A DNA stretch of 64,000 bases from a virus (Duplodnaviria > Caudoviricetes), in IMG/VR virus record IMGVR_UViG_2744054895_000001, positions 30,790 to 94,789 of that record; one strand, 5' to 3'. Positions 10,858 through 64,000 of the stretch are shown here, piece after piece (position 1 is the first letter of the stretch; every line of letters starts with the position of its first letter). The notes under the pieces are model-generated. The model was not told the origin of the DNA, searched no databases, and worked only from the letters and a program-made list of their open reading frames with translations. Made by a program: the position numbers and the translations under genes.

Positions 10858-11691
10858 TCAGCCCGGCAGCGCCGGATCGAGGTCGTCAATGGGACGGCTG
10901 GTCATGTCCTTGGGCAGCGCGCGGATGTAGGTCAAACCGCACCAGCCCCATGCCGTGAGGTTGCCGACCGGGTTGGGGTAGCTCTTGCGGTTGTGGACGC
11001 GCATGGAGTCCATGTGGCGGATCTGGAGCTGGAGGCGCTCCCCCTGGAACCACTCGCCGGCATAGGTCAGGTCGGCTCGGTGGTAGCCGTGGGTACCGCG
11101 GGGGTTGGTCGACGAGCCGGTGGCAACATCGGTGTCGTGGTCGGAGAGGTACATGCGCGCGTAGCACATGTGGTCCAGCGAGTTGGGGCCCTTGGCGATG
11201 GTGGCGATCAGCCGCGTAGTGATGATCCACCAGCCGGTCTGCGGGCAGGTGAGTGTCGGGCTGGAGTTCCAGGGGAAGAACTTGCCGCCCCGGATGCCGC
11301 TGTCGGTGTACTTCCGGTTCCAGATCACGGGGTGCCAGTCTTTGGTGATGTCCACGTCGAGCTGGTCGACGGTCGGAGGGATGCTGGTGCCGGAGGCCCT
11401 GACCGTGCCGACGGGCAGGTTCCATCCCGTGTGGCTGGCGTCGGCCAGCGCGTTCACGGTGTCGGCGACCTGGTCGTCGTAGCGCTGCATGGCGTCCAGG
11501 CGCGAGGCGACATCCTTGTACTCGTGCTTCTTGCCAGCCGCATCGGTGTAGACCTGCGGCTTGGTGCCGACGACCGTTTCGACACCGGTCAGTTCGTCCT
11601 GAATCTCGTTGACGTCGGCGGCTAGGACGAAGTCCCGGCCGTCCTGGTGAGTTGGGAACGTACGGATCGCGTTGGGGTAGACCTTGCTCAT
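10858..11691 (-). CDS. Putative tail fibre / minor tail protein
   Basis: VLAADVNEIQDELTGVE motif; position after baseplate J. Confidence 0.55.
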   Translation of the reverse strand: MSKVYPNAIRTFPTHQDGRDFVLAADVNEIQDELTGVETVVGTKPQVYTDAAGKKHEYKDVASRLDAMQRYDDQVADTVNALADASHTGWNLPVGTVRASGTSIPPTVDQLDVDITKDWHPVIWNRKYTDSGIRGGKFFPWNSSPTLTCPQTGWWIITTRLIATIAKGPNSLDHMCYARMYLSDHDTDVATGSSTNPRGTHGYHRADLTYAGEWFQGERLQLQIRHMDSMRVHNRKSYPNPVGNLTAWGWCGLTYIRALPKDMTSRPIDDLDPALPG

Positions 11692-21650: not shown

Positions 21651-22533
21651 TTACTTTATGACTGCGTAGGAATTCGGACCGTAACTGTCCGCGACCTTGA
21701 AGTCCCATCCCTCGTGCGCGAACGTGAGCTGGGAAACGGCGAATGTATTGCTTCCAGCGTCGAGGTCACCAAAGGCAACCGAGGTGGGCCAAGCGTTGTA
21801 GAGGCGCCATACCGCCTTTACTGCTGCCTTGCTCTTGGTAACCGGGTGGTCGATGAGCATGATGTCGATCGTGGCCCGGAATTCTGAGCCGGTATCGGAT
21901 CCGGATCCGTTGCCCTGCATGACGTCGAAGAGCTGGTACATCCAGTTCACGAGTTTCTGGTCGCCCGGCATCATTCCCTTGGAAAGGGTGACGGGGCTGA
22001 AGTCGCTCTGACCCAGAGGCTGTTACCTCTCCGGTTTCCCGGAGCGGGCTGGTCATTTCTGCCAGCCTCTCGCATTCTCATGCGAGTTCGGACTCTATCT
22101 TCACCCCAGAGGGGTGTCCCGTACATAGTCTCTGGACCTTCCCGTCGGTTTCCCAGGCGGGCTCGGCTGCTGATTTTCCCTACCCTCGGACTTCTCAAGC
22201 CGTCGCGCTCAGGCTTTCGCCCCACGCTGTGGCGCCGAGGTCTAACAGGACGTTCCAGCAATTCTCGGGATTTTCACTCGCTACTTACGCAGCGAGGGCC
22301 CAGTCAAGTTGAGGCATTTTCTGAGTGGTCGTGTTCATGCCGCCGGCCCTGTATGCGATGACGTCAGTCGTCACGGAAAGGCCGGAAACCGACATGAAGC
22401 CGAGCTTTGGATAGGCAGAGGACAGCTTGCCGACCTGGCTGATCTGGACGTGGAACTTGAACGAGCGAAGGGGGTCCGTCTGTCGCGAGGCCAGGCTCTG
22501 GCTTTGCGAGACGGTCTTGAGGGTGGATGCCAT
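21651..22533 (-). CDS. Tail tube protein (T4 gp19-like), two exons 22533-22312 and 22013-21651, 194 aa spliced
   Basis: Exon 1 DPLRSFKFHV..GF..VSGL..YRAGGMNTTTQKMP joins in frame to GQSDFSPVTLSKG..WRLYNAWP..LTFAHEGW. Confidence 0.9.
22014..22311 (-). ncRNA. Group I self-splicing intron (298 nt, no ORF)
   Basis: 5' exon ends in U, intron ends in G; P AAUUGCUGGAA, Q AAUCAGCAGC, R CAGAGACUA, S AAGAUAGAGUCC; P1 GCCU/GGGC with U.G; P10 UGACU/GGUCA. Confidence 0.93.
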
Positions 22534-53751: not shown

Positions 53752-54231
53752 GCCGACCTCGCCTTATCCCGACTTACTCGCCCCGATCAACCGTGACCGA
53801 ACTGTCACCACCACGCTCGCTCGGCGCCCGGGACCGAATCCGACCTACGCGAGTTCCTCTTCGATGGGGTAGACCTCCGGGATCGGATGCCCCACGGGCT
53901 TTCGCAACCTATGCCTGTCGGCGTTGCACTGCGCAAGAAACTCAGAGGTCTCGCTATAGCGAGAGCGACCGCCACACTCACAACGCCAGCGATAGGCCGT
54001 CCTGGTACGGGAACCCTCGGCCGCGCTGCCTGATCGCGCCGCAGCCGCCTGGAGTGCACGCCCAACGATCAATGCCCCGCCCACGGCCACCGCGGTCACA
54101 CCACGGCCGGCCCATCTTCGGATCTTCATGGGCGGCACGGTAGCGCCGACCGATGGCCGATGCGCCCGTTTGGCTCAGTTCGTCGGTTTTACGAGTGGCT
54201 CGCTGGCCCCCGCCACGTCACATTCGAAGCC

Positions 54232-54837
54232 ATGAGCGAACGCGCCAAGCCCATGGTCCATCTATGGGAAATCATCCTCCGGGACAAGGCTTCCGACGAC
54301 AAGGACGACGTGAGCTTCGCCAAGTTCATGGAGTTTTGGGTCGGGTGGGGTCCGCCCATTGGCCTCGCGATCGGCGGCAGCCAGATGGCAAAGCACGGCG
54401 TGCCCGTCGCGTTGGCAGTCGTCGTCCCCCTCGCCGTATGGCTCGTCTGTTTCTGGTACGGCTACCTCAAGGCGAAGGTGCTGGCCCAGGAGATCGCACG
54501 AACTAAGACGTTCCTCCCCAACACCATTAAGACCAAGACCGAACTGCTCAGGTCCGCACTCACTGACGCAGCCGCCTTGTCAGAAGAGCTTCAGGCGGAG
54601 CTAAGGGCAGGGACGACAGCACTCCAGCGCATCCAACAGGAGGCCGCTGACTACAAGAGGCTGCGAGACCTCGACAGAGACGTGGCCGACACGGTCACTC
54701 GCTCCCTCGGCAGAGACGCCGCTCAGCGGGCTGCCAAGAGCGAGCGCAAGGCTCTCGTATGGAACGCCGTCTGGTTCTTGGCCGGCAGCGGCGTCACCTT
54801 GCTCGCCACTGTGTTCAGCCACTCGCTCACGCTGTGA
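54232..54837 (+). CDS. Membrane protein with coiled coil (moron-like)
   Basis: Two N-terminal TMs, central coiled coil, C-terminal TM. Confidence 0.6.
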   Translation: MSERAKPMVHLWEIILRDKASDDKDDVSFAKFMEFWVGWGPPIGLAIGGSQMAKHGVPVALAVVVPLAVWLVCFWYGYLKAKVLAQEIARTKTFLPNTIKTKTELLRSALTDAAALSEELQAELRAGTTALQRIQQEAADYKRLRDLDRDVADTVTRSLGRDAAQRAAKSERKALVWNAVWFLAGSGVTLLATVFSHSLTL

Positions 54838-55649
54838 CCAACGGCACAATGACGCTCCGTGTTGCCCAGCCCGGTTGCGTCGCCGACCGGTGCGCTGGAA
54901 AGCTGCTAAGCGTGACCGGCTCGGCGACTTTCGTGGCTCTCCGTCTACGAAATCGCGAAACCCACCCCAGTCACGCACGGCTACTGTCCTAATTGCTCGA
55001 CCCGGTGGCCATACAAGTGATCAGGGGGGAGTCGTCGGCTTTACCCGTTTAAGGGTGGGGGTGTCCGTTTCATTCCTTCTGTTTCAGCCAATAGTCATGC
55101 ACGACCTTGCATACATTCCCATGCGCGTGCGTATGCCCGTTTCGCACCCTATGTCGACTAGGACAGTCTCTCCACCGTTTGGGTAACTCCCAAATTCCCA
55201 TTTGGGTGCGCCCCCAACTGCGGAAACCTCGCCTGGTCACCTAAAAGGTTGTCAGTAGTGCGAAAGTCAACCCTCGCGCGACACCTTTTCCTGCATAAAG
55301 TCGACAGTTACAGTTCGTAAACAGATACTGTCAACCCAGGGTTGCGGAGTCGTGGGGCCACCCCCTGACAAACGGACCATCAGATACGCAGAGAGTTACT
55401 CAACGTGCATATATGCAGGTCACAGGCATAGATTCGGCCACGCGGATGCACTGTACCAATAGACCGTCAGTTACTTAGGCTTACCTCTGTCAGCAGTTAC
55501 AGAGCGTCAGAATGGCGGAAAGTAGCGAAAGTGGCTTGCTGGCTACCGAGCGTGCGCACGGCGCAGCATGGCACAACGCATCCACCTACTCACTGTGTGT
55601 ATGGGGGAAGCATGCCGACCACTTCCCGCACTCCCCGAAAAAATCCCTA

Positions 55650-55925
55650 GGCGCCGCTGTGAGCCGCTGTGAGGCAGGCGAGGCAGCGTGAGCCGTGACG
55701 AGGCAGCGTGAGCCGCTACAGGCGCCGCTGTGAGCCGTAGGCATACCGAGCAACCGTGAGCCGCTGGGAGCGCTACAGGCACCGCTAGGCAGCGTGCCGA
55801 CCGAACGTGAGCCGCTAGGCGCCGCTGTGAGCCGCTGTCAGGTGTCGAGCGGCGCCGCTGTAGCCATGGCGCACATGAGCGGCTGTGAGCCGCTGTGAGG
55901 CAGCGTGCCGAGCAGCTGCTAGCCG
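55650..55925 (+). repeat. Degenerate direct-repeat array, 8 x GTGAGCCG
   Basis: Copies at 55659, 55688, 55708, 55730, 55756, 55807, 55827, 55885; longer GGCGCCGCTGTGAGCCG three times. Confidence 0.8.
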
Positions 55926-56162
55926 TACCTACTGCCTACGTGGTGCATGCGTAGGGAGTGTGCCGACCACCCATCACCCCCTGAATCTCCAGGGCCGTCG
56001 AGCCATGAATCGGACATAAAGCCTCATATAGGGGCGATCGAGTGGCCGGCAATTCGTGGTCACGGAAAGTAGTTCCCTGTCACGATTGGTCACGCGCCGC
56101 AGGTCACGACAGGTGCGAGATGTCGAGATTCAAGAGATTGCGAGATGGCTCGCGATTCTGGG

Positions 56163-56192
56163 TTGTGCGAGGTACCTCGCACCACCTAATGT
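56163..56192 (+). promoter_or_regulatory. Putative housekeeping-sigma promoter TTGTGC-N18-TAATGT overlapped by a perfect 18-bp palindrome
   Basis: GTGCGAGGTACCTCGCAC at 56165-56182; about 100 nt upstream of boxA. Confidence 0.55.
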
Positions 56193-56252
56193 TCTCTGTG
56201 TCGGAACGAGGAACCACCGGAAACGGGGGAACCGAGTGAAGGCGGATGAATC

Positions 56253-56315
56253 GCACGGACGAAAGCCCTACGGGGTCAGTAGAAAGGCAGCGATCGTTCC
56301 TTGAGAACTCAACAG
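56253..56315 (+). promoter_or_regulatory. rRNA-operon leader / boxA antitermination mimic
   Basis: GGACGAAAGCCCTACGGGGTCAGTAGAAAGGCAGCGATCGTTCCTTGAGAACTCAACAG resembles the Streptomyces rrn leader as recalled (GGAGGAAAGCCCGAGAGGGTGAGTACAAAGGAAGCGTCCGTTCCTTGAGAACTCAACAG). Confidence 0.8.
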
Positions 56316-56319
56316 TGGA

Positions 56320-56985
56320 TATAGACGCACGGGAACGGTAACGACGTTTCTGCGCGGGGGTCGAGGGACCCCCACTATCGGCCGACGTGTCGATAGGGCG
56401 TGCATGCAACAGGGGTGAGGTATGCCTACTGTTGCCGAAGGATTAGAGTCCGGGACCAAATGCGCGTGGCTAGACGTCCGTGGCTTTCACAGCATGGAGA
56501 CAGATAGTCAGTGGATACGTGGTGGCAAGAGCTAACACAGAGGTACCGCCACCGTTACCCGTAGCGTCACTCTCTCTCATATCGCGCCGGATTTATCTGT
56601 GCGCGATACGGGGAGCGTTGCTCTTACAGGGCGCTCCCCTACCCTCTCTGTTTGGTCCGTTTACCGACGGACAACGCAGTACCGAGAGAGTCTGTCTAGG
56701 TTTCCGGTTGGAATCCAAGCTAAACCCACCATGCGTTCAGTGTGCTAGCACTGCATGGCCGTCGTCTGATGACGTAAGTGAGGGGTGTCGTGGGGTCTAG
56801 CAGCCCCAAGTAGGTCAGTTACATCGAGGCCGAATCCCGGGTGCTTTCACAGGTCCTAAGCGAATTCCGATTCCTAGACGCTCTCTCAATCTCATGCACT
56901 ACGGTGCGGCAGGGGCATGCCGGCTTGTCATGCGCGCATTTCCCTGCCGTAGCCGAGAGCCAACGGAGTGGTGTCCGTTGGTCAC
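56320..56985 (+). ncRNA. Candidate large structured leader/ncRNA
   Basis: No credible ORF; many hairpins; long-range stems 56324-56338/56552-56568 and 56684-56700/56873-56887. Confidence 0.55.
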
Positions 56986-57003
56986 CCATGAGAGGAGAGA
57001 ACA

Positions 57004-57489
57004 ATGTCTCATCGCCAGGCGATTACCCGTGAGGATTACCTGTCGGCGCTGAGTGCCGCCCAGTTCGGCGATGTCGCTCCGTTTCTGGCGCGATGCTGCC
57101 CGGACTGCGGTGCGGGTGATGAGTCCGCATCGGATGGGAAGCACGCTGTCATGGGCGGCAGTGTCGTGATCGGATGCGACGGATCCATGCTCGTGAACCC
57201 CAATCTTCTGGGATTCAACGTGGAACTGTGGCTCGACTGGCGTCATATGGAATCCGACAACGTGCCCGAGGACGCCTCTGTGTGGGCATATGAGGGCGTG
57301 ATCTGGCGGACCGGCGCGAAGGTGCGTCCGGCCCGGCCGACGGAGTACGAGGACGGTCTGACCGGAACTCTCGTGCGTATTGCCCTGGAGCACAGCTTCG
57401 GCGATACCGAAGCAACGCTCTGGGTCCAGTGGCACAACAACACGAGCGGTCCGGACTATCACGGATACGGTGACATCGTTCTGATCTGA
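57004..57489 (+). CDS. hypothetical Cys/His protein (paralog of 60233-60931)
   Basis: GAGAGGAGAG RBS; CPDC..HAVMGGSVVIGCDG..VNPN..WLDWR. Confidence 0.75.
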   Translation: MSHRQAITREDYLSALSAAQFGDVAPFLARCCPDCGAGDESASDGKHAVMGGSVVIGCDGSMLVNPNLLGFNVELWLDWRHMESDNVPEDASVWAYEGVIWRTGAKVRPARPTEYEDGLTGTLVRIALEHSFGDTEATLWVQWHNNTSGPDYHGYGDIVLI

Positions 57490-57490
57490 A

Positions 57491-57558
57491 AGTCGTCCCG
57501 GCGACTCTAAATAGGCGTTAGGCCGGGAGCGTCCGTACGGAATTCCGTACGGGGTCGC
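57491..57558 (+). ncRNA. Pistol self-cleaving ribozyme 1
   Basis: P1 AGUCG/CGACU, loop UCCCGG pairs with CCGGGA, UAAAUAG, P2 GCG/CGC, UUAGG, GCGU, P3 CCGUACGG hairpin, G|U site 57554/57555. Confidence 0.9.
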
Positions 57559-57611
57559 AGCAGCGCTGCGGGTCAGGGGTGGTGCCCTGTCTGTGTCGAG
57601 AGGAGAGAGCA

Positions 57612-58139
57612 ATGAGCATCAGTCCGATCAACTGGTCCGAGCGCATCATGCGTCCCCGGTCCGGTGCGTGGAAGCAGTGCCCTAACTGCAAGCGGCGGAA
57701 CGTCTCCATTCGCTCCCCGCATTCCCACACCGACGGCCGACCGTGCAAGTTCGTGGTGATCTACCGCACGTACTTCACGATGGACATGATCCATGACGGC
57801 GACTACGGCCAGATCAGGAACGAGGACGGCTCTTTCGGTGACGGTCCCCTCCAGACTTACGAGATTGTGGACTGCGCGCCGAAGGACGTCTCCGGTCCAT
57901 GGGACAACCCCGTCAAGCTCGCAATCGACGCCATTCGTGACGCCGATTGCGCGTACGACGAGGGTGCCGACTGGTTTTACCACCACGACGGCTCGTACAT
58001 CCGAGACCACTACTCGGGTGAGCGCATCGACCCGTCCGCGCACCTCTGGGGGTTCACGGACGAGGAAGACGAGCGCGTCCACCACGTGATCCAGCGCGGG
58101 TGGAAGCAATTCTGGGCGAGCCTGCGTAAGGCCGCCTAA
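57612..58139 (+). CDS. hypothetical protein (CxxC..H..C)
   Basis: GAGAGGAGAGAG RBS, ATG 57612. Confidence 0.75.
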   Translation: MSISPINWSERIMRPRSGAWKQCPNCKRRNVSIRSPHSHTDGRPCKFVVIYRTYFTMDMIHDGDYGQIRNEDGSFGDGPLQTYEIVDCAPKDVSGPWDNPVKLAIDAIRDADCAYDEGADWFYHHDGSYIRDHYSGERIDPSAHLWGFTDEEDERVHHVIQRGWKQFWASLRKAA

Positions 58140-58140
58140 C

Positions 58141-58208
58141 AGTCGACTCGGCGACTCTAAATAGGCGTTAGGCCGAGTGCGTCCGTACGGAATTCCGTGC
58201 GGGGTCGC
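58141..58208 (+). ncRNA. Pistol self-cleaving ribozyme 2
   Basis: Same fold with compensatory pseudoknot ACUCGG/CCGAGU; G|U site 58204/58205. Confidence 0.9.
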
Positions 58209-58241
58209 AGGGGTGGTTCCCTGCCACGAGAGGAGAGAGCT

Positions 58242-58952
58242 ATGTCTGCGCAGACCCTCGAAATGGTTGCGTCCGACTTTCTGTACGGCTCCACCGAGGA
58301 GGCCCTGAACGAACTGTTCGCGGCCCCGCCGGCCATGGAGCCGCACACTGACGCGCGCTTCGACAAGGGCAACGACACGATCGTCATCGACGGGGTGCAG
58401 TTCTACGCCAAGCGCGTGGACTACCACCGTGAGATGGACGAGAAGTTCGTCCAGTGGGTGATGGAAAACCGCCAGGGGTTTCCGGTCTACGGCGACCCGT
58501 CCTCTGCGGACGGCGAGTCGTTGGAACTCTGGGCACAGTCCATCACGGACAAGTACTTCGGGTCCCCCTACATCTCCGGCATCGACACGGACGGCTACGA
58601 GTCGTTCATGCCGAACGGGGTCAAGGGCCAGTTCTTCCGGTACGAGGACGAGACGTACGTCGCCCTGTGGCAGCAGTGCACCGGATACCGCGCACGCACG
58701 CGTCCGATGGTGTTCCACGTGTCCTGCCACGAGTCCGCCTACCTGCTGGACGACGACAAGGCCACGGCGTACTGCACCGAGTGCGAGGACGTCGTGTTCG
58801 ACATCGAGTCCGGCGGGCAGCACATCAAGCGCATCGACCGGAACGGCGAAGAGATCGACGACGCCCCGGAGGTGTCATTCGACGACCTGGTCGGCCATCC
58901 CGTCTGCCCCAAGTGCGGTTCCGATCTGCGTGTCGAGGCCGCGAATTTCTGA
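58242..58952 (+). CDS. hypothetical acidic protein with C-terminal zinc ribbon
   Basis: RBS; CTEC...CPKCG. Confidence 0.75.
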   Translation: MSAQTLEMVASDFLYGSTEEALNELFAAPPAMEPHTDARFDKGNDTIVIDGVQFYAKRVDYHREMDEKFVQWVMENRQGFPVYGDPSSADGESLELWAQSITDKYFGSPYISGIDTDGYESFMPNGVKGQFFRYEDETYVALWQQCTGYRARTRPMVFHVSCHESAYLLDDDKATAYCTECEDVVFDIESGGQHIKRIDRNGEEIDDAPEVSFDDLVGHPVCPKCGSDLRVEAANF

Positions 58953-58961
58953 ATTCATTCA

Positions 58962-59021
58962 TGCCGAAACTCCGTGAGGAGTCGTCCCAAGGTGGTGCTT
59001 GGGACCTGATGATGGCAGCCA
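58962..59021 (+). ncRNA. Type II hammerhead ribozyme 1
   Basis: UGCC-GAAA-CUCC(GUGA)GGAG-UC|GUCCCAAG(GUGGUG)CUUGGGAC-CUGAUGA-U-GGCA; cut after 58983. Confidence 0.92.
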
Positions 59022-59053
59022 ATGTCTGAGTCAGTGTTGAGAGGAGAGAGCTT

Positions 59054-59617
59054 ATGTCTGACCTGCGCATCTACGTGGCGAGTCTGTCCGACTACAACAA
59101 CAGCATTCTCCACGGTCGATGGATCGACGCTGACCAGGATGTCCAGGCCATCAACGATGAGATCGCTGAGATGCTGAAGGAGTCGCCTGCGGCCCAGAAG
59201 TATGGCGATGTCGCGGAGGAGTATGCCATCCACGACTACGACGGATTCGGGGATTTCAATCTCGGCGAGTATGAATCGCTGGAGAAGATTACGTCCATTG
59301 CCAAGGCACTGGATGAGTTTCCCTCTTGTGTAGTCGCTTGGTTCTTCCGCGAGTGCTCCCACATGGAGTTCGACGAGATTGTGGACACCATCCGCGAGAA
59401 GTCGATCACCACGATCGAGGATCAGTGGGGCAATGAAACGGACGCGCTGGCTGAGTATCTCTTCGACCAGATCGAAGAGAGTGGTGACCTGCCGGAGCAG
59501 TACAAGAATCACCAGATGGCCATAGCCAAGAGCATGGCGCACGATGCCGTCTGCGGCGGGGAATACAACATCCTCTACGAGGGCGGCGGCAAGTACCACA
59601 TCTTCGAGGTCCTGTGA
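59054..59617 (+). CDS. ardA: Antirestriction protein ArdA (DNA mimic)
   Basis: RIYVASLSDYNNSILHGRWIDA..EEYAIHDYDGF..LGEYESL; very acidic. Confidence 0.88.
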   Translation: MSDLRIYVASLSDYNNSILHGRWIDADQDVQAINDEIAEMLKESPAAQKYGDVAEEYAIHDYDGFGDFNLGEYESLEKITSIAKALDEFPSCVVAWFFRECSHMEFDEIVDTIREKSITTIEDQWGNETDALAEYLFDQIEESGDLPEQYKNHQMAIAKSMAHDAVCGGEYNILYEGGGKYHIFEVL

Positions 59618-59622
59618 CCAAT

Positions 59623-59682
59623 TGCCGAAACCCCTTCGGGGGTCGTCTCAGGGTGGTGCCTGGGGCCTGACGATGGCAGCCA
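59623..59682 (+). ncRNA. Type II hammerhead ribozyme 2
   Basis: UGCC-GAAA-CCCC(UUCG)GGGG-UC|GUCUCAGG(GUGGUG)CCUGGGGC-CUGACGA-U-GGCA; cut after 59644. Confidence 0.92.
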
Positions 59683-59705
59683 TTGTCGGTTTCGAGAGGA
59701 GAGTT

Positions 59706-60140
59706 GTGACGAGACACGCTATCCGGGCGATGCGAGGAATAATGCGTCGCAGGGATCAGGACTACGCGTGGATTCCATCGCTGGGCCATGGAGTTCTCTA
59801 TGACCCCGATAACCCTACCTGCCCGCACTCTGTCACAAGAGCGGCAGTTCGTGCGCTCCCGAGCGGAACACGCACGATGTCTTGCAGGATAAGTAACAGG
59901 TCTCGCGCGTTGGAGCTCGTAGTCCGAGAATTGGCTACGGAATGGTACTGCGACATCGCAGACATACGATCTATCGTGGCCGACAGGTTCCGGGGATTCG
60001 GGGACAGCGAACAATCCGCACTCGACGATGCAATCACGAGTGGCCTTACTTCCCCGACTTCTCTGGAGAACGTCAAGCACGGGTGCATGACGGAATTCCG
60101 CAAGACGCCGTTCGGTGTGGTCATGCTCGATCAGGGTTAA
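59706..60140 (+). CDS. hypothetical protein
   Basis: GTG after GAGAGGAGAG; lower GC than neighbours. Confidence 0.65.
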   Translation: MTRHAIRAMRGIMRRRDQDYAWIPSLGHGVLYDPDNPTCPHSVTRAAVRALPSGTRTMSCRISNRSRALELVVRELATEWYCDIADIRSIVADRFRGFGDSEQSALDDAITSGLTSPTSLENVKHGCMTEFRKTPFGVVMLDQG

Positions 60141-60146
60141 TCAAAA

Positions 60147-60206
60147 GCCGAAACCCCTTCGGGGGTCGTCGTGGGGTGGTGCCCACGGCCTGATGACGGC
60201 AGCCGC
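60147..60206 (+). ncRNA. Type II hammerhead ribozyme 3
   Basis: GCC-GAAA-CCCC(UUCG)GGGG-UC|GUCGUGGG(GUGGUG)CCCACGGC-CUGAUGA-C-GGC; cut after 60167. Confidence 0.92.
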
Positions 60207-60232
60207 TGAAGTCAGTTCTGAGAGGAGAGAGC

Positions 60233-60931
60233 ATGAAGCCCGAGGAATTGGAGTACCTGGACGCCGTGCGTCAGACACCCCTCGGACGCATCGAGCCTTA
60301 CCTGTCTTCGGTCTGTCGTGACTGCGACGGACAGGTGGACTCGTCGAATTTGGCTGGGCACGTGATGATCGGCTCACATGTCGTTATCTGCTGTGAGGGT
60401 TACTTCATGGTGGACCCGAACGTGGTCGGCATCCCGTCGCCGAATTGGTCGGACTGGCGCGAGAAGGCAGAGTCCAATCCCAAGTCGCTGTATAAGCAGG
60501 GTGAGTTCCTGGCTGCGCACGCCCTAGAACTGGGCGTCTCGTACGACAGCGATCTTCCTGCGTCCGCCTTCCACCCGAAGCTCGTCGGCGCGGCCATTGC
60601 CGCTCTGCGTGCATGGCTGGAGGTCAACTGGGGCAGCGCAGCAGTCCGCGAGGCCGAAAAGGAGGCCCTCGGTCACACCGGAGACGGGATGTATGTCGGC
60701 ACGGTCGACAAGCTCAACTACCAGGGGAAGACCCTGTGGGTTGGTGATCGTGTGCGCTGCGCGAACCAGGATGCGCAGGGGAACGACCTGTCTTTCTCCG
60801 GGGTGCTAGCCAAGATCGAGCTGGAGTACTGGGGGTCCGAACTGAAGCCGACGGTCAATGTGCGCGCTCCCGAAGCGACGCACGACGATCCGATCGGATG
60901 GGAGGACCTGAGCCGCGTAACGTCGTCGTAG
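60233..60931 (+). CDS. hypothetical Cys/His protein (paralog of 57004-57489)
   Basis: CRDC..HVMIGSHVVICCEG..VDPN..WSDWR. Confidence 0.75.
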   Translation: MKPEELEYLDAVRQTPLGRIEPYLSSVCRDCDGQVDSSNLAGHVMIGSHVVICCEGYFMVDPNVVGIPSPNWSDWREKAESNPKSLYKQGEFLAAHALELGVSYDSDLPASAFHPKLVGAAIAALRAWLEVNWGSAAVREAEKEALGHTGDGMYVGTVDKLNYQGKTLWVGDRVRCANQDAQGNDLSFSGVLAKIELEYWGSELKPTVNVRAPEATHDDPIGWEDLSRVTSS

Positions 60932-60948
60932 TTTGGATTCGCCTACAA

Positions 60949-61010
60949 GCCGAAACCTCCGAGAGGAGGTCGTCGTGGGGTGGTGCCCACGGCCTGATGA
61001 AGGCAGCCGC
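60949..61010 (+). ncRNA. Type II hammerhead ribozyme 4
   Basis: GCC-GAAA-CCUCC(GAGA)GGAGG-UC|stem I-CUGAUGA-A-GGC; cut after 60971. Confidence 0.92.
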
Positions 61011-61037
61011 TGAAGTCAGTTCTGAGAGGAGAGAGTT

Positions 61038-61538
61038 ATGGGTCTGAGCAAGCAGGATGTCCGCGCGATCAGGAACGCTGATGGACTGGTGTTCTTCCAC
61101 AACGCCCCGATTTCTCGGGGCGGTGAGCGCATGAACTGGCTCAAGTGCATCCGCGACGGTTCGAAGACTTCGAGTGGTTTCGAGGACTTCCACGTCGTCC
61201 GGCTGGAGAGCACGTCCATCACGTACTACGGGGAGGACGCGCACACCAAGCACTCGGCGTCCCTCGGTGACGAAAAGGTCGTCGGGTCCGTCTACATCAG
61301 CTCCCCCGGCATGCTGCCGCAGCATGAGACCTGGATGCGAGCGCTCCGCGAGGGTGATGAACTCCGGGTCCAGATGTGGCTGGGCAACAACAACGGCTAC
61401 CTCAAGGAGTCGGGGATGGCGCATGACTACGCGTGGTTGGACATCCGGCGCCCGAAGACGGACGCCAGGACAAGGTACTGGCTGGGCAATGTGATCTGCC
61501 CGGCGACCAGCACGTGCCGCATGCTGAGGGCGCTCTGA
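61038..61538 (+). CDS. hypothetical protein
   Basis: Strong RBS, 166 aa. Confidence 0.75.
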   Translation: MGLSKQDVRAIRNADGLVFFHNAPISRGGERMNWLKCIRDGSKTSSGFEDFHVVRLESTSITYYGEDAHTKHSASLGDEKVVGSVYISSPGMLPQHETWMRALREGDELRVQMWLGNNNGYLKESGMAHDYAWLDIRRPKTDARTRYWLGNVICPATSTCRMLRAL

Positions 61539-61602
61539 ACCAGCGGTAGAAGGCTCGCCGGCTGAGGTGTGTTCTCTGTCGGCGGCCCTGCCGTGCCTAA
61601 TT

Positions 61603-61662
61603 TGCCGAAACTCCGTGAGGAGTCGTCGTGGGGTGGTGCCCACGGCCTGACGAAGGCAGCCA
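61603..61662 (+). ncRNA. Type II hammerhead ribozyme 5
   Basis: UGCC-GAAA-CUCC(GUGA)GGAG-UC|stem I-CUGACGA-A-GGCA; cut after 61624. Confidence 0.92.
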
Positions 61663-61694
61663 ATCGCTGAGTCAGTATTGAGAGGAGAGAGCAC

Positions 61695-62519
61695 ATGAGC
61701 ATCAGAAAAGTGCTGGTCTCGGCTGATGACGTTCACGCGTACGAAGCCATGGTCGACACGGAGGCTCCGCTGTGGAACGGGTTTCTTTCGCCCCGCTTCA
61801 CTCTGGAGGCCGTGAAGCAGATAGCTTCTGACATGCAGGAGGATCTGAAGAGGTCCGGCTACGCCGATCAGGAGGAGATCCGCGTCATCGAGGCCCCCGG
61901 TTTGTTCGGGGAAAGCGAGGACAGGGTCGACGAGTTCGGCGAGCCGATCCAGATCCCTGCGGTGGTGGTGCTCCATATCAGTTGGACGTACGTCTTCGAT
62001 GACGACCCGGAGTCCTGCGCGAAGGTGGTTGCGCCCGGCAAAGACGGGTTGTACGCCGTTGGCGCATGGGAGTGGACGTGGAGCGAGATCAGTCCGAACA
62101 TCTCCCAGCGCGCGGAGTATCTATTCGACTTCGCGACCGCGGCCATCAATGAGGCTGTCTGGTACGAAGTCGAGCCGACTGAGGACGACGAGGACCAGAC
62201 GCTCGGCATGGAGTGGGAAGCCGTCGAGGCCCTGAACCTGGGGATCAACAGCGTGCATCTCAACATGCGCTCCGCCTTCATGTCCGCGCTCGGGGAGTTC
62301 ATCGACGCCAATGCGCAGGTGCTGAACGGCATCCCTGCCGACCAGGCCGGCTATGCCTTCTGGCACTCCATGCGCGGGGTGGACGGCATCAAGTCCCGTT
62401 CGTTCCTCGGAAGGCGTGAGATCCCCGCAGAGGTTCGCCAGCGTCTCCACGAGACGGCGCGTACGCACTCGTACAGCAGCGTTCGATTCGTCGGAGACAT
62501 GCTCCACATCGAGAGCTAG
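61695..62519 (+). CDS. hypothetical acidic protein
   Basis: Strong RBS; WNGFLSPRFT..GLYAVGAWEWTW. Confidence 0.75.
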   Translation: MSIRKVLVSADDVHAYEAMVDTEAPLWNGFLSPRFTLEAVKQIASDMQEDLKRSGYADQEEIRVIEAPGLFGESEDRVDEFGEPIQIPAVVVLHISWTYVFDDDPESCAKVVAPGKDGLYAVGAWEWTWSEISPNISQRAEYLFDFATAAINEAVWYEVEPTEDDEDQTLGMEWEAVEALNLGINSVHLNMRSAFMSALGEFIDANAQVLNGIPADQAGYAFWHSMRGVDGIKSRSFLGRREIPAEVRQRLHETARTHSYSSVRFVGDMLHIES

Positions 62520-62527
62520 CTCAACAA

Positions 62528-62589
62528 TGCCGAAACCTCCGAGAGGAGGTCGTCGTGGGGTGGTGCCCACGGCCTGATGAAGGCAGCCA
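62528..62589 (+). ncRNA. Type II hammerhead ribozyme 6
   Basis: UGCC-GAAA-CCUCC(GAGA)GGAGG-UC|stem I-CUGAUGA-A-GGCA; cut after 62551. Confidence 0.92.
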
Positions 62590-62620
62590 ATCGCTGAGTC
62601 AGTGTTGAGAGGAGAGAGCT

Positions 62621-63217
62621 ATGCGGACTGCTTCAACTATGATCGGTTTCGCGATCGTCGAGGACGACGACTTCGACCTGGAGAACTTCAGCGACTCCGA
62701 AGCGCTCATCAAGGAGTGCGGCGAGAAGCTGGAGTCTGGGGAGTGGACCGTCTGCGGCATCGTGGCCGTGGTCCACGGCGAACTTCGATACGAGGCCGCC
62801 CTGTGGGGCACCGTCATCGAGGGCTGGCACTTCGGCAGGTACAAGACCGTGGAGGACATCCGCGACCCGTACCTCCGAGAGGTCGCCGAGGACATCGCCG
62901 ATCAGGCGCAGGATCTCATCCCGGTGACGCACGCCGACGACTCACCTGACGCGCTGGTCGGTCACGTGGTGGCCGTCCGGCCGTACTACTACGAGCCATC
63001 CGGTCCCGGATCCTTCCGCTCCAAGCGTTCCCCATTCATCGCCCGTGCGGAGGTGAAGGAGACGTTCGGGGAGGAGATGGTCGTCCTGCGGTTCCTGGAG
63101 GACGCCGGTCCGTGGCCGCGCGACGGTGCCTACTACCCGCGCGAGTTGCACAAGGTGCAGGCGTGCAAGTGCCCCGCATGTACCTCCGGTGGCATCGGCA
63201 TACACCAGGGAGCTTGA
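62621..63217 (+). CDS. hypothetical protein
   Basis: Strong RBS, acidic N-half, C-terminal CxCxxC. Confidence 0.72.
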   Translation: MRTASTMIGFAIVEDDDFDLENFSDSEALIKECGEKLESGEWTVCGIVAVVHGELRYEAALWGTVIEGWHFGRYKTVEDIRDPYLREVAEDIADQAQDLIPVTHADDSPDALVGHVVAVRPYYYEPSGPGSFRSKRSPFIARAEVKETFGEEMVVLRFLEDAGPWPRDGAYYPRELHKVQACKCPACTSGGIGIHQGA

Positions 63218-63280
63218 TCCAGACGCAGAGGACTCGTCGGCTTGCCATGCACGTCGGCCGACGGATCCGCCATGCCTTAT

Positions 63281-63343
63281 TGCCGAAACCTCCTGCAAGG
63301 AGGTCGTCACGGGGTGGTGCCCGTGGCCTGACGAAGGCAGCCC
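63281..63343 (+). ncRNA. Type II hammerhead ribozyme 7
   Basis: UGCC-GAAA-CCUCC(UGCAA)GGAGG-UC|GUCACGGG(GUGGUG)CCCGUGGC-CUGACGA-A-GGCA; covarying stem I; cut after 63305. Confidence 0.92.
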
Positions 63344-63370
63344 TTGGTCAGTTCTGAGAGGAGAGAGCAC

Positions 63371-64000
63371 ATGATCAGCACCGGCAAGCCCGAGGTCAAC
63401 CCGGCTACCTTCGTGCTCGCGGAGGATGACGGGGTGGTCACGGTACAGGTGTCCGTCACCTACCCGATGGATGGTGAGGCCATCGTCGCCAAGCTCTACG
63501 CGGCGTACAGCAAGCCGTTCGAGAACGGCACGCCCCTCCCCGAGCAGTTGACCATGCAGGACGTCATGCGCACGCTCGCGCAGGAGTCCGCCAACTGCGC
63601 GGACGGCTGGCACTTCTGGGAGTCCGAGCCAGGCCAGGCGGCGTGGGACGCGGTTCATCCGTGGGCGGAGGCTCAGGTCCGTCGTCTCTTTCCCATGCTG
63701 ACGTGGCCAGAGGAGCAGTGGTCCGAGTATGCCGAGGTCGGCCGGATGGTCGAGCATCTCCGGCAGATGGGGATCCCCGCCGAGGAGATCAGCACAGGTG
63801 GCGGCTGCTGGGCCGCGCGTGTGGCGCTTTGCCAGGGGCACGATCTGAACCTGACCATCGCGTCCGGTGAGGACTGGTGTTGGCAGATCTACCGCGAGGG
63901 CGAGCAGAGCATGGCCGGCTACTGGCCGGGGTCTGACATTCCGCGTGCCGCCCGGCGCACCAAGAAGCTCATCAAGGGGCTCGGCAACGTGGTTGCCTGA
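63371..64000 (+). CDS. hypothetical protein
   Basis: ATG 63371 after GAGAGGAGAGAG; stop at window end. Confidence 0.72.
   Translation: MISTGKPEVNPATFVLAEDDGVVTVQVSVTYPMDGEAIVAKLYAAYSKPFENGTPLPEQLTMQDVMRTLAQESANCADGWHFWESEPGQAAWDAVHPWAEAQVRRLFPMLTWPEEQWSEYAEVGRMVEHLRQMGIPAEEISTGGGCWAARVALCQGHDLNLTIASGEDWCWQIYREGEQSMAGYWPGSDIPRAARRTKKLIKGLGNVVA

What the first reader, a model, noticed from the sequence alone, without database searches (positions are those of the whole stretch)
56253..56315. Phage copy of the host rRNA-operon leader with boxA but no rRNA gene
CGTTCCTTGAGAACTCAACAG (56295-56315) and the ~40 nt upstream, including a GAAAGCCC-loop-GGG hairpin and AGTAGAAAGG, closely follow the Streptomyces rrn leader as I recall it. 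No 16S sequence follows. Established: boxA recruits NusB-S10 and other Nus factors for processive antitermination. Inference: the phage uses host rrn antitermination, without an N-like protein, to read through a long, structured, ribozyme-rich transcript, and may also titrate Nus factors from host rRNA operons.
Basis: partly seen in the sequence, partly recalled or inferred. Interest (0 to 1): 0.85.

Follow-up and report, generated by a model that had tools for sequence, protein, structure and literature searches.

The report
Phage copy of host rRNA-operon leader
A Streptomyces prophage starts an early, anti-defence operon with a 65-base copy of the signal its host places in front of ribosomal RNA genes to load anti-termination factors, so it probably borrows that host machinery; many actinobacterial phages do the same.

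Summary
Window 56253-56317 (hairpin, AAGG, boxA 56295-56307, boxC-like 56308-56318) is a true homologue of the Streptomyces rrn leader. It is 55 of 65 bases identical to two host leaders. In three complete Streptomyces genomes, 20 of 21 BLAST matches lie about 160-200 nt upstream of a 16S gene. No rRNA gene follows in the window.

The element lies about 100 nt downstream of a promoter-like site conserved in relatives. It heads an untranslated leader of about 800 nt. After that comes a same-strand run of small genes, one of them ArdA anti-restriction, separated by two pistol and seven hammerhead ribozymes.

The core also occurs in 141 cultured actinophage records and 32 IMG/VR contigs. In 6 of 6 cultured phages checked it sits in an operon leader.

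Host copies pair with the 16S-23S spacer to form a processing stalk. Phage copies (7 of 7) have no such partner, so they kept the protein-loading half.

The best reading is an N-independent, rrn-type nut site for Nus-factor antitermination. That is inferred, not shown. The link to ribozymes is not general (2 of 12 loci). Nus titration is untested.

This scan noted the same mimicry earlier on other DNA. My literature searches found no report for actinophages. Coliphage T7 has a counterpart.

The parts
56163..56192 (+). Promoter-like site: -35 TTGTGC (56163-56168), 18-nt spacer, -10 TAATGT (56187-56192). The inferred transcript start is near 56199-56201.
   Evidence: Both hexamers are kept in relatives L140 and L129. 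L129 has a different spacer and reads TAGAGT at -10, the hexamer of host rrn promoters and of BD-cluster phage promoters. The simple consensus scan did not list this site. No transcript data exist.
56262..56277 (+). Small hairpin in the boxB position (GCCC / TACG loop / GGGG), upstream of boxA as in rrn leaders
   Evidence: It forms in the MFE fold. A hairpin with many different stems and insertions occupies this place in all 54 aligned host and phage copies. The window's form matches the host type GGAGGAAAGCCC-GAGA-GGGTGAGTAC.
56278..56294 (+). Linker with the invariant AAGG (56284-56287)
   Evidence: AAGG is invariant in 54 of 54 rows of alignment A3. RNAalifold pairs it with the CCTT of boxA, but every such pair is invariant, so nothing tests that pairing. 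The base after AAGG is C in 9 of 12 phage rows and in 1 of 42 host rows.
56295..56307 (+). boxA homologue CGTTCCTTGAGAA
   Evidence: It is identical to the Streptomyces rrn leader at these 13 positions. It matches 9 of 11 positions of the gamma-proteobacterial consensus GYTCTTTAANA printed in PMC5725501 (passages read).
56308..56318 (+). boxC-like segment CTCAACAGTGG
   Evidence: CTCAACAG is shared with host leaders. The next base is T in 12 of 12 phage rows and C in 41 of 42 host rows. In hosts this segment and boxA pair with the 16S-23S spacer. In the window no partner exists.
56319..57003 (+). Untranslated leader holding conserved structured RNA (context)
   Evidence: The GC3 frame plot shows no coding signal from about 54900 to 57000. 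Bases 56296-56349 are identical in three relatives whose genomes align at about 77-90% identity. The hairpin 56356-56373 changes on both sides at three pairs in L140. No Rfam family matches at E up to 1.
57004..64000 (+). Downstream same-strand operon: ten ORFs, with pistol ribozymes at 57491-57559 and 58141-58209 and hammerhead II ribozymes at 58962, 59623, 60146, 60948, 61603, 62528 and 63281. The ArdA gene is at 59054-59617.
   Evidence: Rfam matches at gathering score. GC3 supports the coding frames. Pfam ArdA at 7.1e-25 and PHROG anti-restriction at 4e-22; the other 9 ORFs match no family.

Best explanation
Window 56253-56318 is an rrn-type nut site: a boxB-position hairpin, boxA and a boxC-like segment. 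It descends from the leader of host Streptomyces rRNA operons and is kept in phages as its own lineage.

Inferred mechanism: it is transcribed from a host-type promoter about 100 nt upstream, as the 5' part of an early, anti-defence operon. On the nascent RNA, boxA would bind host NusB-S10 and the adjoining segment NusA. Together with NusG these would convert host RNA polymerase into the fast, Rho-resistant form used on rRNA operons, with no phage factor needed. That would carry the polymerase through about 800 nt of untranslated, structured leader. It would also carry it across gene junctions where self-cleaving ribozymes leave ribosome-free RNA.

Shown here: homology, position, orientation, conservation, and loss of the rRNA-processing partner. 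Inferred: transcription of the element, Nus binding and antitermination.
For: 1. Homology to the host rrn leader. E is 1.9e-11 in an 8.6-Mb genome, and 20 of 21 genomic matches lie upstream of 16S genes. 55 of 65 bases are identical to L014 and L015. The 15-mer core is in 129 of 151 sampled Actinomycetes genomes, against 0 for the reversed control. Without the six unpublished genomes the count is 123 of 145.

2. Position. The element lies downstream of -35 and -10 hexamers that are conserved while the spacer diverges. It is on the same strand as the operon.

3. Recurrence in phages.
- 87 Streptomyces phage records match window 56248-56330.
- 141 of 50,697 phage records match the 33-nt core, and all 141 are actinophages.
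- In the 60 rows listed, 57 matches are unannotated and all lie within 6.8 kb of a record end.
- In 6 of 6 cultured phages inspected, the match is 60-490 nt upstream of a same-strand run of small genes.
- 32 IMG/VR contigs carry the core, and none of their 33 matches is followed by a 16S 5' end. For 6 of the 33, less than 600 nt was available.

4. Separation of the two host roles. Host boxA-boxC pairs with a 16S-23S spacer segment at -42.3 and -41.6 kcal/mol (z -6.2 and -6.7, 0 of 60 shuffles as good). The window and six other phages have no such partner (z -1.2 to +1.8). So the single-stranded, factor-loading role is the one that can be conserved in phages.

5. Phage copies share states that are rare in hosts, which argues against a recent accidental capture.

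6. Need. The leader is about 800 nt and untranslated. [quoted passage not shown]

7. The operon holds ArdA. This parallels T7, where a boxA-like 13-mer at 812-824 lies between host promoter A3 and the anti-restriction gene 0.3.
Against: - There is no experimental datum of any kind. No sequencing run was listed for this stretch, so neither the transcript start nor read-through could be seen.
- The promoter rests on conservation in three relatives only, and the simple consensus scan did not list it.
- The two closest relatives' records (G004, G005) end about 310-320 nt downstream of the core. The link between the leader and the ribozyme operon therefore rests on this one assembly.
- Ribozyme arrays exist without the core (Alvy), and 9 of 12 core-bearing viral loci scanned have no ribozyme. 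The element is not needed for ribozyme operons as such.
- The invariant AAGG could pair with the CCTT of boxA and mask it.
- In E. coli a boxA in the suhB leader represses rather than activates (PMC5725501, abstract and passages read). The direction of the effect cannot be read from sequence alone.
Confidence: 0.62

Rival explanations
1. The element is a Nus-dependent or NusA-dependent negative or autoregulatory site. Factor binding on the leader would pause or terminate transcription or block translation, as at E. coli suhB. That would tie early-operon output to the host's free Nus or ribosome-synthesis state rather than promote read-through.
For: [quoted passage not shown] In phage BRock the core lies only 60 nt from the next start codon.
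Against: In the window the first gene is about 690 nt downstream, too far for occlusion of a ribosome-binding site. The architecture is that of the rrn leader, where the effect is positive: the hairpin precedes boxA, the site is near the promoter, and long RNA follows.
Confidence: 0.1
2. What is selected is the rrn-like promoter and start region, for strong, growth-rate-coupled initiation. On this view the leader is a passenger, or serves RNA stability, and has no role in elongation.
For: BD-cluster phages have TTGACA-N17-TAGAGT. Kenrey shares the host's -10 and start block. L129 has TAGAGT at -10.
Against: In the window the promoter has diverged from the host form (TAATGT, different surroundings), while boxA and the boxC-like segment stay identical to the host's. 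Across IMG/VR contigs the core is kept while the upstream sequence differs completely.
Confidence: 0.1
3. It is an RNA-processing signal: one strand of an RNase III-type stalk, as in pre-16S rRNA, used to release the structured RNA or to trim the mRNA 5' end.
For: In hosts the same bases form the 5' strand of a stalk with the spacer. Just downstream, 56319-56340 can pair with 56546-56569 at -28.9 kcal/mol.
Against: The boxA-boxC core has no complementary partner in the next 1.27 kb (z +1.8) or up to base 64000 (z +0.9). The same holds in six other phages. The neighbouring helix is only marginal (z -1.7; 4 of 60 shuffles as good), and it is invariant in the three relatives, so it is untested by covariation.
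Confidence: 0.05
4. It is a decoy. Abundant leader RNA would soak up NusB, S10 or NusA and starve host rRNA operons as part of host shut-off.
For: The site equals the host's own boxA at 13 of 13 positions and stands behind an early promoter. This reading is compatible with the main one.
Against: Nothing here bears on stoichiometry. There is one copy per genome. The element is also present in temperate-type phages that carry integrases.
Confidence: 0.05
5. It is a functionless remnant of host DNA picked up by the phage.
For: It is a short stretch of clear host origin.
Against: It recurs in 141 phage records and 32 viral contigs, always without rRNA. It was in the same kind of place and orientation in 6 of 6 checked. 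The core is invariant while the flanks diverge. Phage copies share their own character states.
Confidence: 0.03

Closest known systems
Actinobacterial rrn operon leader: tandem promoters, hairpin, boxA and boxC. This is the nut-like site studied in Mycobacterium tuberculosis, where boxC binds NusA (as stated in PMC2724277, passages read).
   Same: The hairpin, AAGG, boxA and boxC-like order is the same. All 13 boxA bases are shared, and 55 of 65 positions overall. The site lies near a promoter and on the sense strand.
   Different: No rRNA gene follows. There is no spacer partner for a processing stalk. The bases after CAACAG differ (TGG against CGTGCC). There is one promoter-like site rather than the host's tandem TCTGATAGAGTCGG blocks.
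Lambdoid phage nutL and nutR sites (boxA, spacer, boxB; dependent on N)
   Same: Both are phage-borne boxA sites behind an early promoter that use host Nus factors (PMC2724277, passages read).
   Different: In lambda, boxB follows boxA and is bound by phage N, and boxA departs from the rrn form. Here the hairpin precedes boxA as in rrn, boxA equals the host's rrn boxA, and no N-like factor is evident. That absence cannot be proven.
Coliphage T7 early leader (host promoters A1-A3, boxA-like sequence, gene 0.3 ocr)
   Same: Both have host-RNA-polymerase promoters, then an rrn-type boxA, then an early operon with an anti-restriction gene whose messages are cut apart. The T7 13-mer at 812-824, with one mismatch, lies between A3 (750) and gene 0.3 (925).
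   Different: The host phylum and the motif differ. T7 cuts its early RNA with host RNase III (recalled, not checked here), whereas this operon carries its own pistol and hammerhead ribozymes. The T7 record shown annotates no boxA, and a 13-mer at up to 2 mismatches appeared in 21 of 200 shuffles.
BoxA elements on other non-rRNA transcripts: CRISPR array leaders and the suhB 5' UTR
   Same: The Nus complex is used outside rRNA, notably to keep polymerase going on long untranslated RNA (PMC7862264; PMC5725501; passages read).
   Different: Those are cellular loci of Proteobacteria with boxA alone. Here a whole rrn leader segment is carried by a phage of Actinobacteria.

Membership tests
rrn-type nut site (hairpin, boxA, boxC) of Actinobacteria | Sequence homology to the host rrn leader element | tested here: met
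   83% identity over 63 nt with E 1.9e-11. 20 of 21 genomic matches lie upstream of 16S. 55 of 65 bases are identical to L014 and L015.
rrn-type nut site (hairpin, boxA, boxC) of Actinobacteria | boxA consensus | tested here: met
   13 of 13 positions match the Streptomyces rrn boxA. 9 of 11 positions match GYTCTTTAANA (PMC5725501).
rrn-type nut site (hairpin, boxA, boxC) of Actinobacteria | Hairpin immediately upstream of boxA (the rrn order) | tested here: met
   A hairpin is present in all 54 aligned copies, with varied stems.
rrn-type nut site (hairpin, boxA, boxC) of Actinobacteria | Transcribed, promoter-proximal, on the sense strand of a long transcription unit | tested here: inconclusive
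   Conserved -35 and -10 hexamers lie about 100 nt upstream, and the operon is on the same strand. No transcript data exist, because no sequencing run was listed.
rrn-type nut site (hairpin, boxA, boxC) of Actinobacteria | Binds NusB-S10 and NusA and confers terminator or Rho read-through | not testable with these tools
   This needs binding assays and reporters.
True rrn operon leader | Followed by 16S rRNA, and paired with the spacer to form the processing stalk | tested here: not met
   There is no rRNA in the window. No partner is found (z +1.8 and +0.9), against z -6.2 and -6.7 in two hosts.
Lambdoid nut site | boxB hairpin downstream of boxA, bound by a phage N protein | tested here: not met
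   The hairpin lies upstream of boxA. No N homologue was sought directly. No Q-type, NusG or NusB Pfam match occurs in the record.
Any Rfam family | Covariance-model match | tested here: not met
   Nothing matches at 56200-56340 at E up to 1.

The most novel reading that the evidence does not exclude
The phage has built a complete pseudo-rRNA operon: an rrn-like promoter, an rrn nut leader, a conserved structured RNA of about 650 nt standing where 16S would be, and self-cleaving ribozymes in place of RNase III sites. The host rRNA antitermination complex would then be recruited for more than Rho resistance. It would also act as a co-transcriptional RNA chaperone that lets the structured RNA and nine ribozymes fold, and it would protect the severed, ribosome-free nascent RNA. 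This would be a way of making a processed polycistronic anti-defence transcript entirely with borrowed rRNA machinery.
Probability: 0.2. Interest if true: 0.8.

Novelty: new member of a known kind. Interest (0 to 1): 0.55.

Why it matters
If it works as inferred, many phages of Streptomyces, Mycobacterium, Gordonia and Rhodococcus drive an early operon by copying the host's rRNA antitermination signal. They would need no phage-encoded antiterminator.

That would have three consequences:
- It would give a simple handle on early phage gene expression in actinobacteria: one short RNA site to mutate.
- It would explain the long gene-free leaders at actinophage genome ends.
- It would offer a compact, host-matched antitermination cassette for expressing long or untranslated RNAs in Streptomyces.

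The contrast found here also provides a natural separation-of-function allele of the rrn leader. Hosts use the same bases for both factor loading and the pre-16S processing stalk, whereas phages keep only the first use.

Tried and rejected
- Near-identity search of 55200-57500 against cultured phages found no match. The distant mode was needed.
- Rfam at E up to 1 over 54800-57600 gave no family for the leader; the three weak hits are below gathering score.
- The simple promoter and terminator scan listed one promoter-like site at 55301 and one terminator-like site at 55057. Both counts are at chance level, and the scan did not list the promoter I infer.
- The local fold of 56199-56345 is no more stable than shuffles (z -0.67). 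The element is therefore not a structured RNA as such.
- RNAalifold on the MAFFT alignment recovered only an invariant AAGG/CCTT helix with no covariation. The variable hairpin had to be shown by single folds.
- Whole-leader duplex folding proved uninformative, because shuffles scored as well. I replaced it with a 28-33-nt query.
- I rejected the idea that the ribozyme operon is host flank. The hammerheads match those of virion-derived Streptomyces phages. However, G004 and G005 do end about 310-320 nt after the core, and I cannot explain that.
- Sequencing runs: none was listed and no RNA holder was listed.
- Papers PMC1276712 and PMC420393 are not held. What I say about M. tuberculosis boxC and NusA comes from passages of PMC2724277.
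- Literature searches for an actinophage or Streptomyces-phage boxA or rrn leader:
  - One search listed 2 papers; judged from titles and abstracts only, neither concerns a phage boxA.
  - Searches listed none.
  - One search returned only general Nus and Rho papers.
  - Subscription journals and supplementary files were not searchable and may hold a report.
- Complex prediction, structure prediction and the large protein searches were not used, because the finding is an RNA site.

Full report
WHAT IS THERE. It comprises a small hairpin (about 56262-56277), AGTAGAAAGG (56278-56287), CGTTCCTTGAGAA (56295-56307) and CTCAACAGTGG (56308-56318). The 20-mer core is unique in the window at up to 3 mismatches, with none in 100 shuffles. 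It is also unique in the 94,789-base virus record from which the window is cut. IMG/VR classes that record as a provirus, 96% complete, and the window is its last 64 kb.

IT IS A COPY OF THE HOST rrn LEADER.
All 80 listed rows are Actinomycetes (Streptomyces, Kitasatospora, Microbacterium and others), and many lie at contig ends.
- In 5 of 5 complete Streptomyces loci the 18-mer lies 158-196 nt upstream of the 16S start on the same strand.
- BLAST of window 56235-56335 against three complete genomes gave 6, 8 and 7 matches. Those genomes hold 6, 8 and 6 detected 16S genes, and 20 of the 21 matches sit just upstream of one.
- The odd match (G003) has the full leader-like element followed by an Rfam gntR-DTE RNA instead of 16S.
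- Of the 120 loci, 50 show the 16S 5' end 88-226 nt downstream, 2 do not, and 68 end too early to judge.
- The 15-mer core is in 129 of 151 sampled genomes of the class, with 0 for the reversed control. Six of those genomes are unpublished; without them the count is 123 of 145.
- The window's 65 nt are identical at 55 positions to the leaders in L014 and L015. Its hairpin is of one particular Streptomyces type.
- No rRNA gene is in the window.

ALIGNMENT A3. It holds 54 rows: the window, 11 viral or phage rows and 42 host rows. They were taken from the 69 unique Streptomyces-type rows. I left out L139 and 15 host rows (L056, L064, L069, L071, L074, L080, L082, L084, L092, L093, L097, L110, L112, L114, L120) to keep the alignment short.

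CONTEXT IN THE WINDOW.
- GC3 frame analysis shows minus-strand genes up to about 53.8 kb, one plus-strand gene at 54034-54837, no coding signal from about 54.9 to 57.0 kb, and then plus-strand genes to the window's end.
- Rfam finds pistol ribozymes at 57491 and 58141 and seven type II hammerheads from 58962 to 63346. All are on the plus strand, each just after a gene.
- One gene is ArdA (Pfam 7.1e-25). The other nine ORFs match nothing in Pfam or PHROGs.
- Upstream of the element, TTGTGC-N18-TAATGT (56163-56192) is conserved in the two closest relatives. One relative has a different spacer and TAGAGT at -10. TAGAGT is the -10 of the host's tandem rrn promoters and of BD-cluster phage promoters.
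- The inferred unit is therefore: promoter, about 100 nt, nut-like site, about 690 nt of untranslated and partly highly conserved structured RNA, and then ten genes cut apart by ribozymes.

RECURRENCE IN PHAGES.
- 87 Streptomyces phage records match window 56248-56330 in distant BLAST.
- The 33-nt core matches 141 of 50,697 phage records at a loose E limit of 10. All 141 are actinophages: 127 Streptomyces, 10 Mycobacterium, 2 Gordonia and 2 Rhodococcus. Chance hits would mostly have fallen on phages of other hosts.
- In the 60 rows shown, 57 matches are unannotated and all lie within 6.8 kb of a record end.
- In Lannister, Kenrey, BRock, Bantam, Estes and FlowerPower (6 of 6 inspected) the match lies 60-490 nt upstream of a same-strand run of small genes.
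- 32 IMG/VR contigs carry the core, with quite different upstream sequences. None of their 33 matches is followed by a 16S 5' end; 6 of the 33 had less than 600 nt available.
- Phage copies share states that are rare in hosts. The base after AAGG is C in 9 of 12 phage rows and 1 of 42 host rows. The base after CAACAG is T in 12 of 12 phage rows and 1 of 42 host rows. The single host exception (L016) has no 16S downstream and resembles viral contigs, so it may be a prophage.
- This pattern points to an element maintained within phages rather than to repeated accidents.

WHICH HOST FUNCTION IS KEPT. In two hosts the 28-30 nt of boxA-boxC are almost perfectly complementary to a segment of the 16S-23S spacer. 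The energies are -42.3 and -41.6 kcal/mol, with z -6.2 and -6.7 and 0 of 60 shuffles as good. So in the host the same bases serve twice. First they act as single-stranded leader RNA, and later as one strand of the pre-16S stalk.

In the window the core has no partner in the next 1.27 kb (z +1.8) or up to base 64000 (z +0.9). Six other phages give z between -1.2 and +0.8. The bases that differ between phage and host (TGG against CGTGCC) lie in the part that pairs with the spacer in hosts. The phages have thus kept what can load factors and dropped what makes the stalk. This is my main argument for the nut reading over the processing reading.

MECHANISM. From established knowledge of rrn antitermination, NusB-S10 bind boxA, and with NusA, NusG and further factors they make RNA polymerase resistant to Rho (abstracts of PMC6614797 and PMC6614801 in the listing; passages of PMC2724277). 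In M. tuberculosis the boxC region binds NusA (same passages). The Nus network appears conserved in Actinomycetota (PMC13753749, passages).

I infer that this leader loads the same complex on host polymerase, with no phage factor. The need is plain. The leader is about 800 nt and untranslated, and each ribozyme junction exposes ribosome-free RNA. BoxA elements are reported to raise distal expression of long untranslated arrays (PMC7862264, passages). None of this is shown for this phage.

WHAT SPEAKS AGAINST OR LIMITS IT.
- There are no transcript or binding data, and the promoter is inferred.
- The ribozyme link is not general. Of 12 of the 32 viral loci scanned with Rfam, 2 have ribozymes downstream on the same strand (L136 with three hammerheads, L145 with two pistols), 1 has a hammerhead upstream (L149) and 9 have none.
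- The Lannister and Kenrey loci have none at E up to 0.01.
- Alvy has ten hammerheads and no core.
- The records of the two closest relatives stop about 310-320 nt after the core, not at gene edges. The window's own record is trimmed at gene edges. Contiguity of the leader and the operon therefore rests on one assembly.
- A boxA can also repress, as at suhB (PMC5725501).

COMPARISON AND NOVELTY.
- The element works like, and by sequence descends from, the actinobacterial rrn nut-like site. It is not an rrn leader proper, because it has no rRNA and no stalk partner.
- It differs from lambdoid nut sites in the order of its parts and in having no evident N.
- The closest phage analogue is T7. There, a 13-mer one mismatch from the E. 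coli rrn boxA lies between host promoter A3 and the anti-restriction gene 0.3. That motif alone is weak evidence, since 21 of 200 shuffles gave a match.
- My literature searches found no report of such a leader in actinophages. Subscription journals and supplements were not searchable.
- This scan has noted the same mimicry before. Sixteen notes in at least 13 genomes hold the search words, and the eight shown describe it.
- I class it as a new member of a known kind: boxA-mediated antitermination borrowed by a phage.
- This copy is notable in two ways. It heads a ribozyme-punctuated anti-defence operon, and it shows the separation of the two host roles of the leader.

VERDICT. Observation confirmed. 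Interpretation partly supported. Confidence in a functional rrn-type nut site 0.62. Interest 0.55.

Noticed in passing
window 56296-56640: A very strongly conserved non-coding stretch follows the nut-like site. Bases 56296-56349 are identical in three relatives whose genomes align at about 77-90% identity. The hairpin 56356-56373 changes on both sides at three pairs in L140. A second hairpin lies at about 56375-56396. A possible long-range helix joins 56319-56340 with 56546-56569 (-28.9 kcal/mol, z -1.7). No Rfam family matches.
   Followed up: partly
G004:C1:1-75 and G005:C1:63258-63323 (window about 56617-56640): The records of the two closest relatives both end within about 20 nt of each other, about 310-320 nt after the core. 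They end inside or just after a hairpin and not at a gene edge, and they lack the ribozyme operon. G004 is otherwise collinear with the window's record from 532 to 87406. The cause is unexplained; it could be an assembly break, a repeat or a physical end.
   Followed up: partly
window 55649-55930: An iteron-like array: six or more copies of a 14-18-nt unit (GCCGCTGTGAGCCG and longer forms), spaced 33-71 nt apart in family D2, upstream of the inferred promoter. It is largely conserved in the relatives.
   Followed up: no
window 56161-56186: A 13+13-nt inverted repeat (92% complementary, no gap) lies over the -35 hexamer and the spacer of the inferred promoter. It is kept in L140 but not in L129 and may be an operator. 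Nearby, GGTCACG-like words repeat at 56050-56110.
   Followed up: no
L172 about 940-1190 (G003:C1:4469240-4469490): A Streptomyces chromosome holds an eighth-type copy of the rrn-like leader (hairpin, boxA, boxC with one change) that is not followed by 16S. About 50 nt downstream comes an Rfam gntR-DTE RNA (105 bits). So the host too uses this leader for a non-rRNA RNA, unless this locus is itself a mobile element.
   Followed up: partly
L030 3216-3245 and L037 2850-2880 (host 16S-23S spacers): The host boxA-boxC bases are almost perfectly complementary to a spacer segment about 145-165 nt after the 16S 3' end (-42 kcal/mol). The nut site therefore doubles as the 5' strand of the pre-16S stalk.
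   Followed up: yes
L167 (Streptomyces phage Alvy, NC_054669.1 39000-53011): Ten type II hammerheads lie on the strand of the right-arm operon of a virion-derived phage. Several overlap annotated small 'hypothetical protein' CDSs; for example the CDS at locus 11037-11111 overlaps the hammerhead at 11023-11085. Those ORF calls are therefore doubtful.
   Followed up: no
window 59054-59617: An ArdA-family anti-restriction gene sits in the ribozyme-separated operon (Pfam 7.1e-25). The nine neighbouring ORFs match no Pfam or PHROG family and are candidates for further anti-defence genes.
   Followed up: partly
L016 5833-5926 (Kitasatospora contig): This genomic copy of the element has the phage-type states and no 16S within 400 nt. 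It resembles viral contigs L135, L143 and L145 and is probably a prophage.
   Followed up: no
window 22069-22321 (minus strand): Rfam finds a group I intron (68.5 bits) in the structural-gene region. Other notes of this scan cover it.
   Followed up: no
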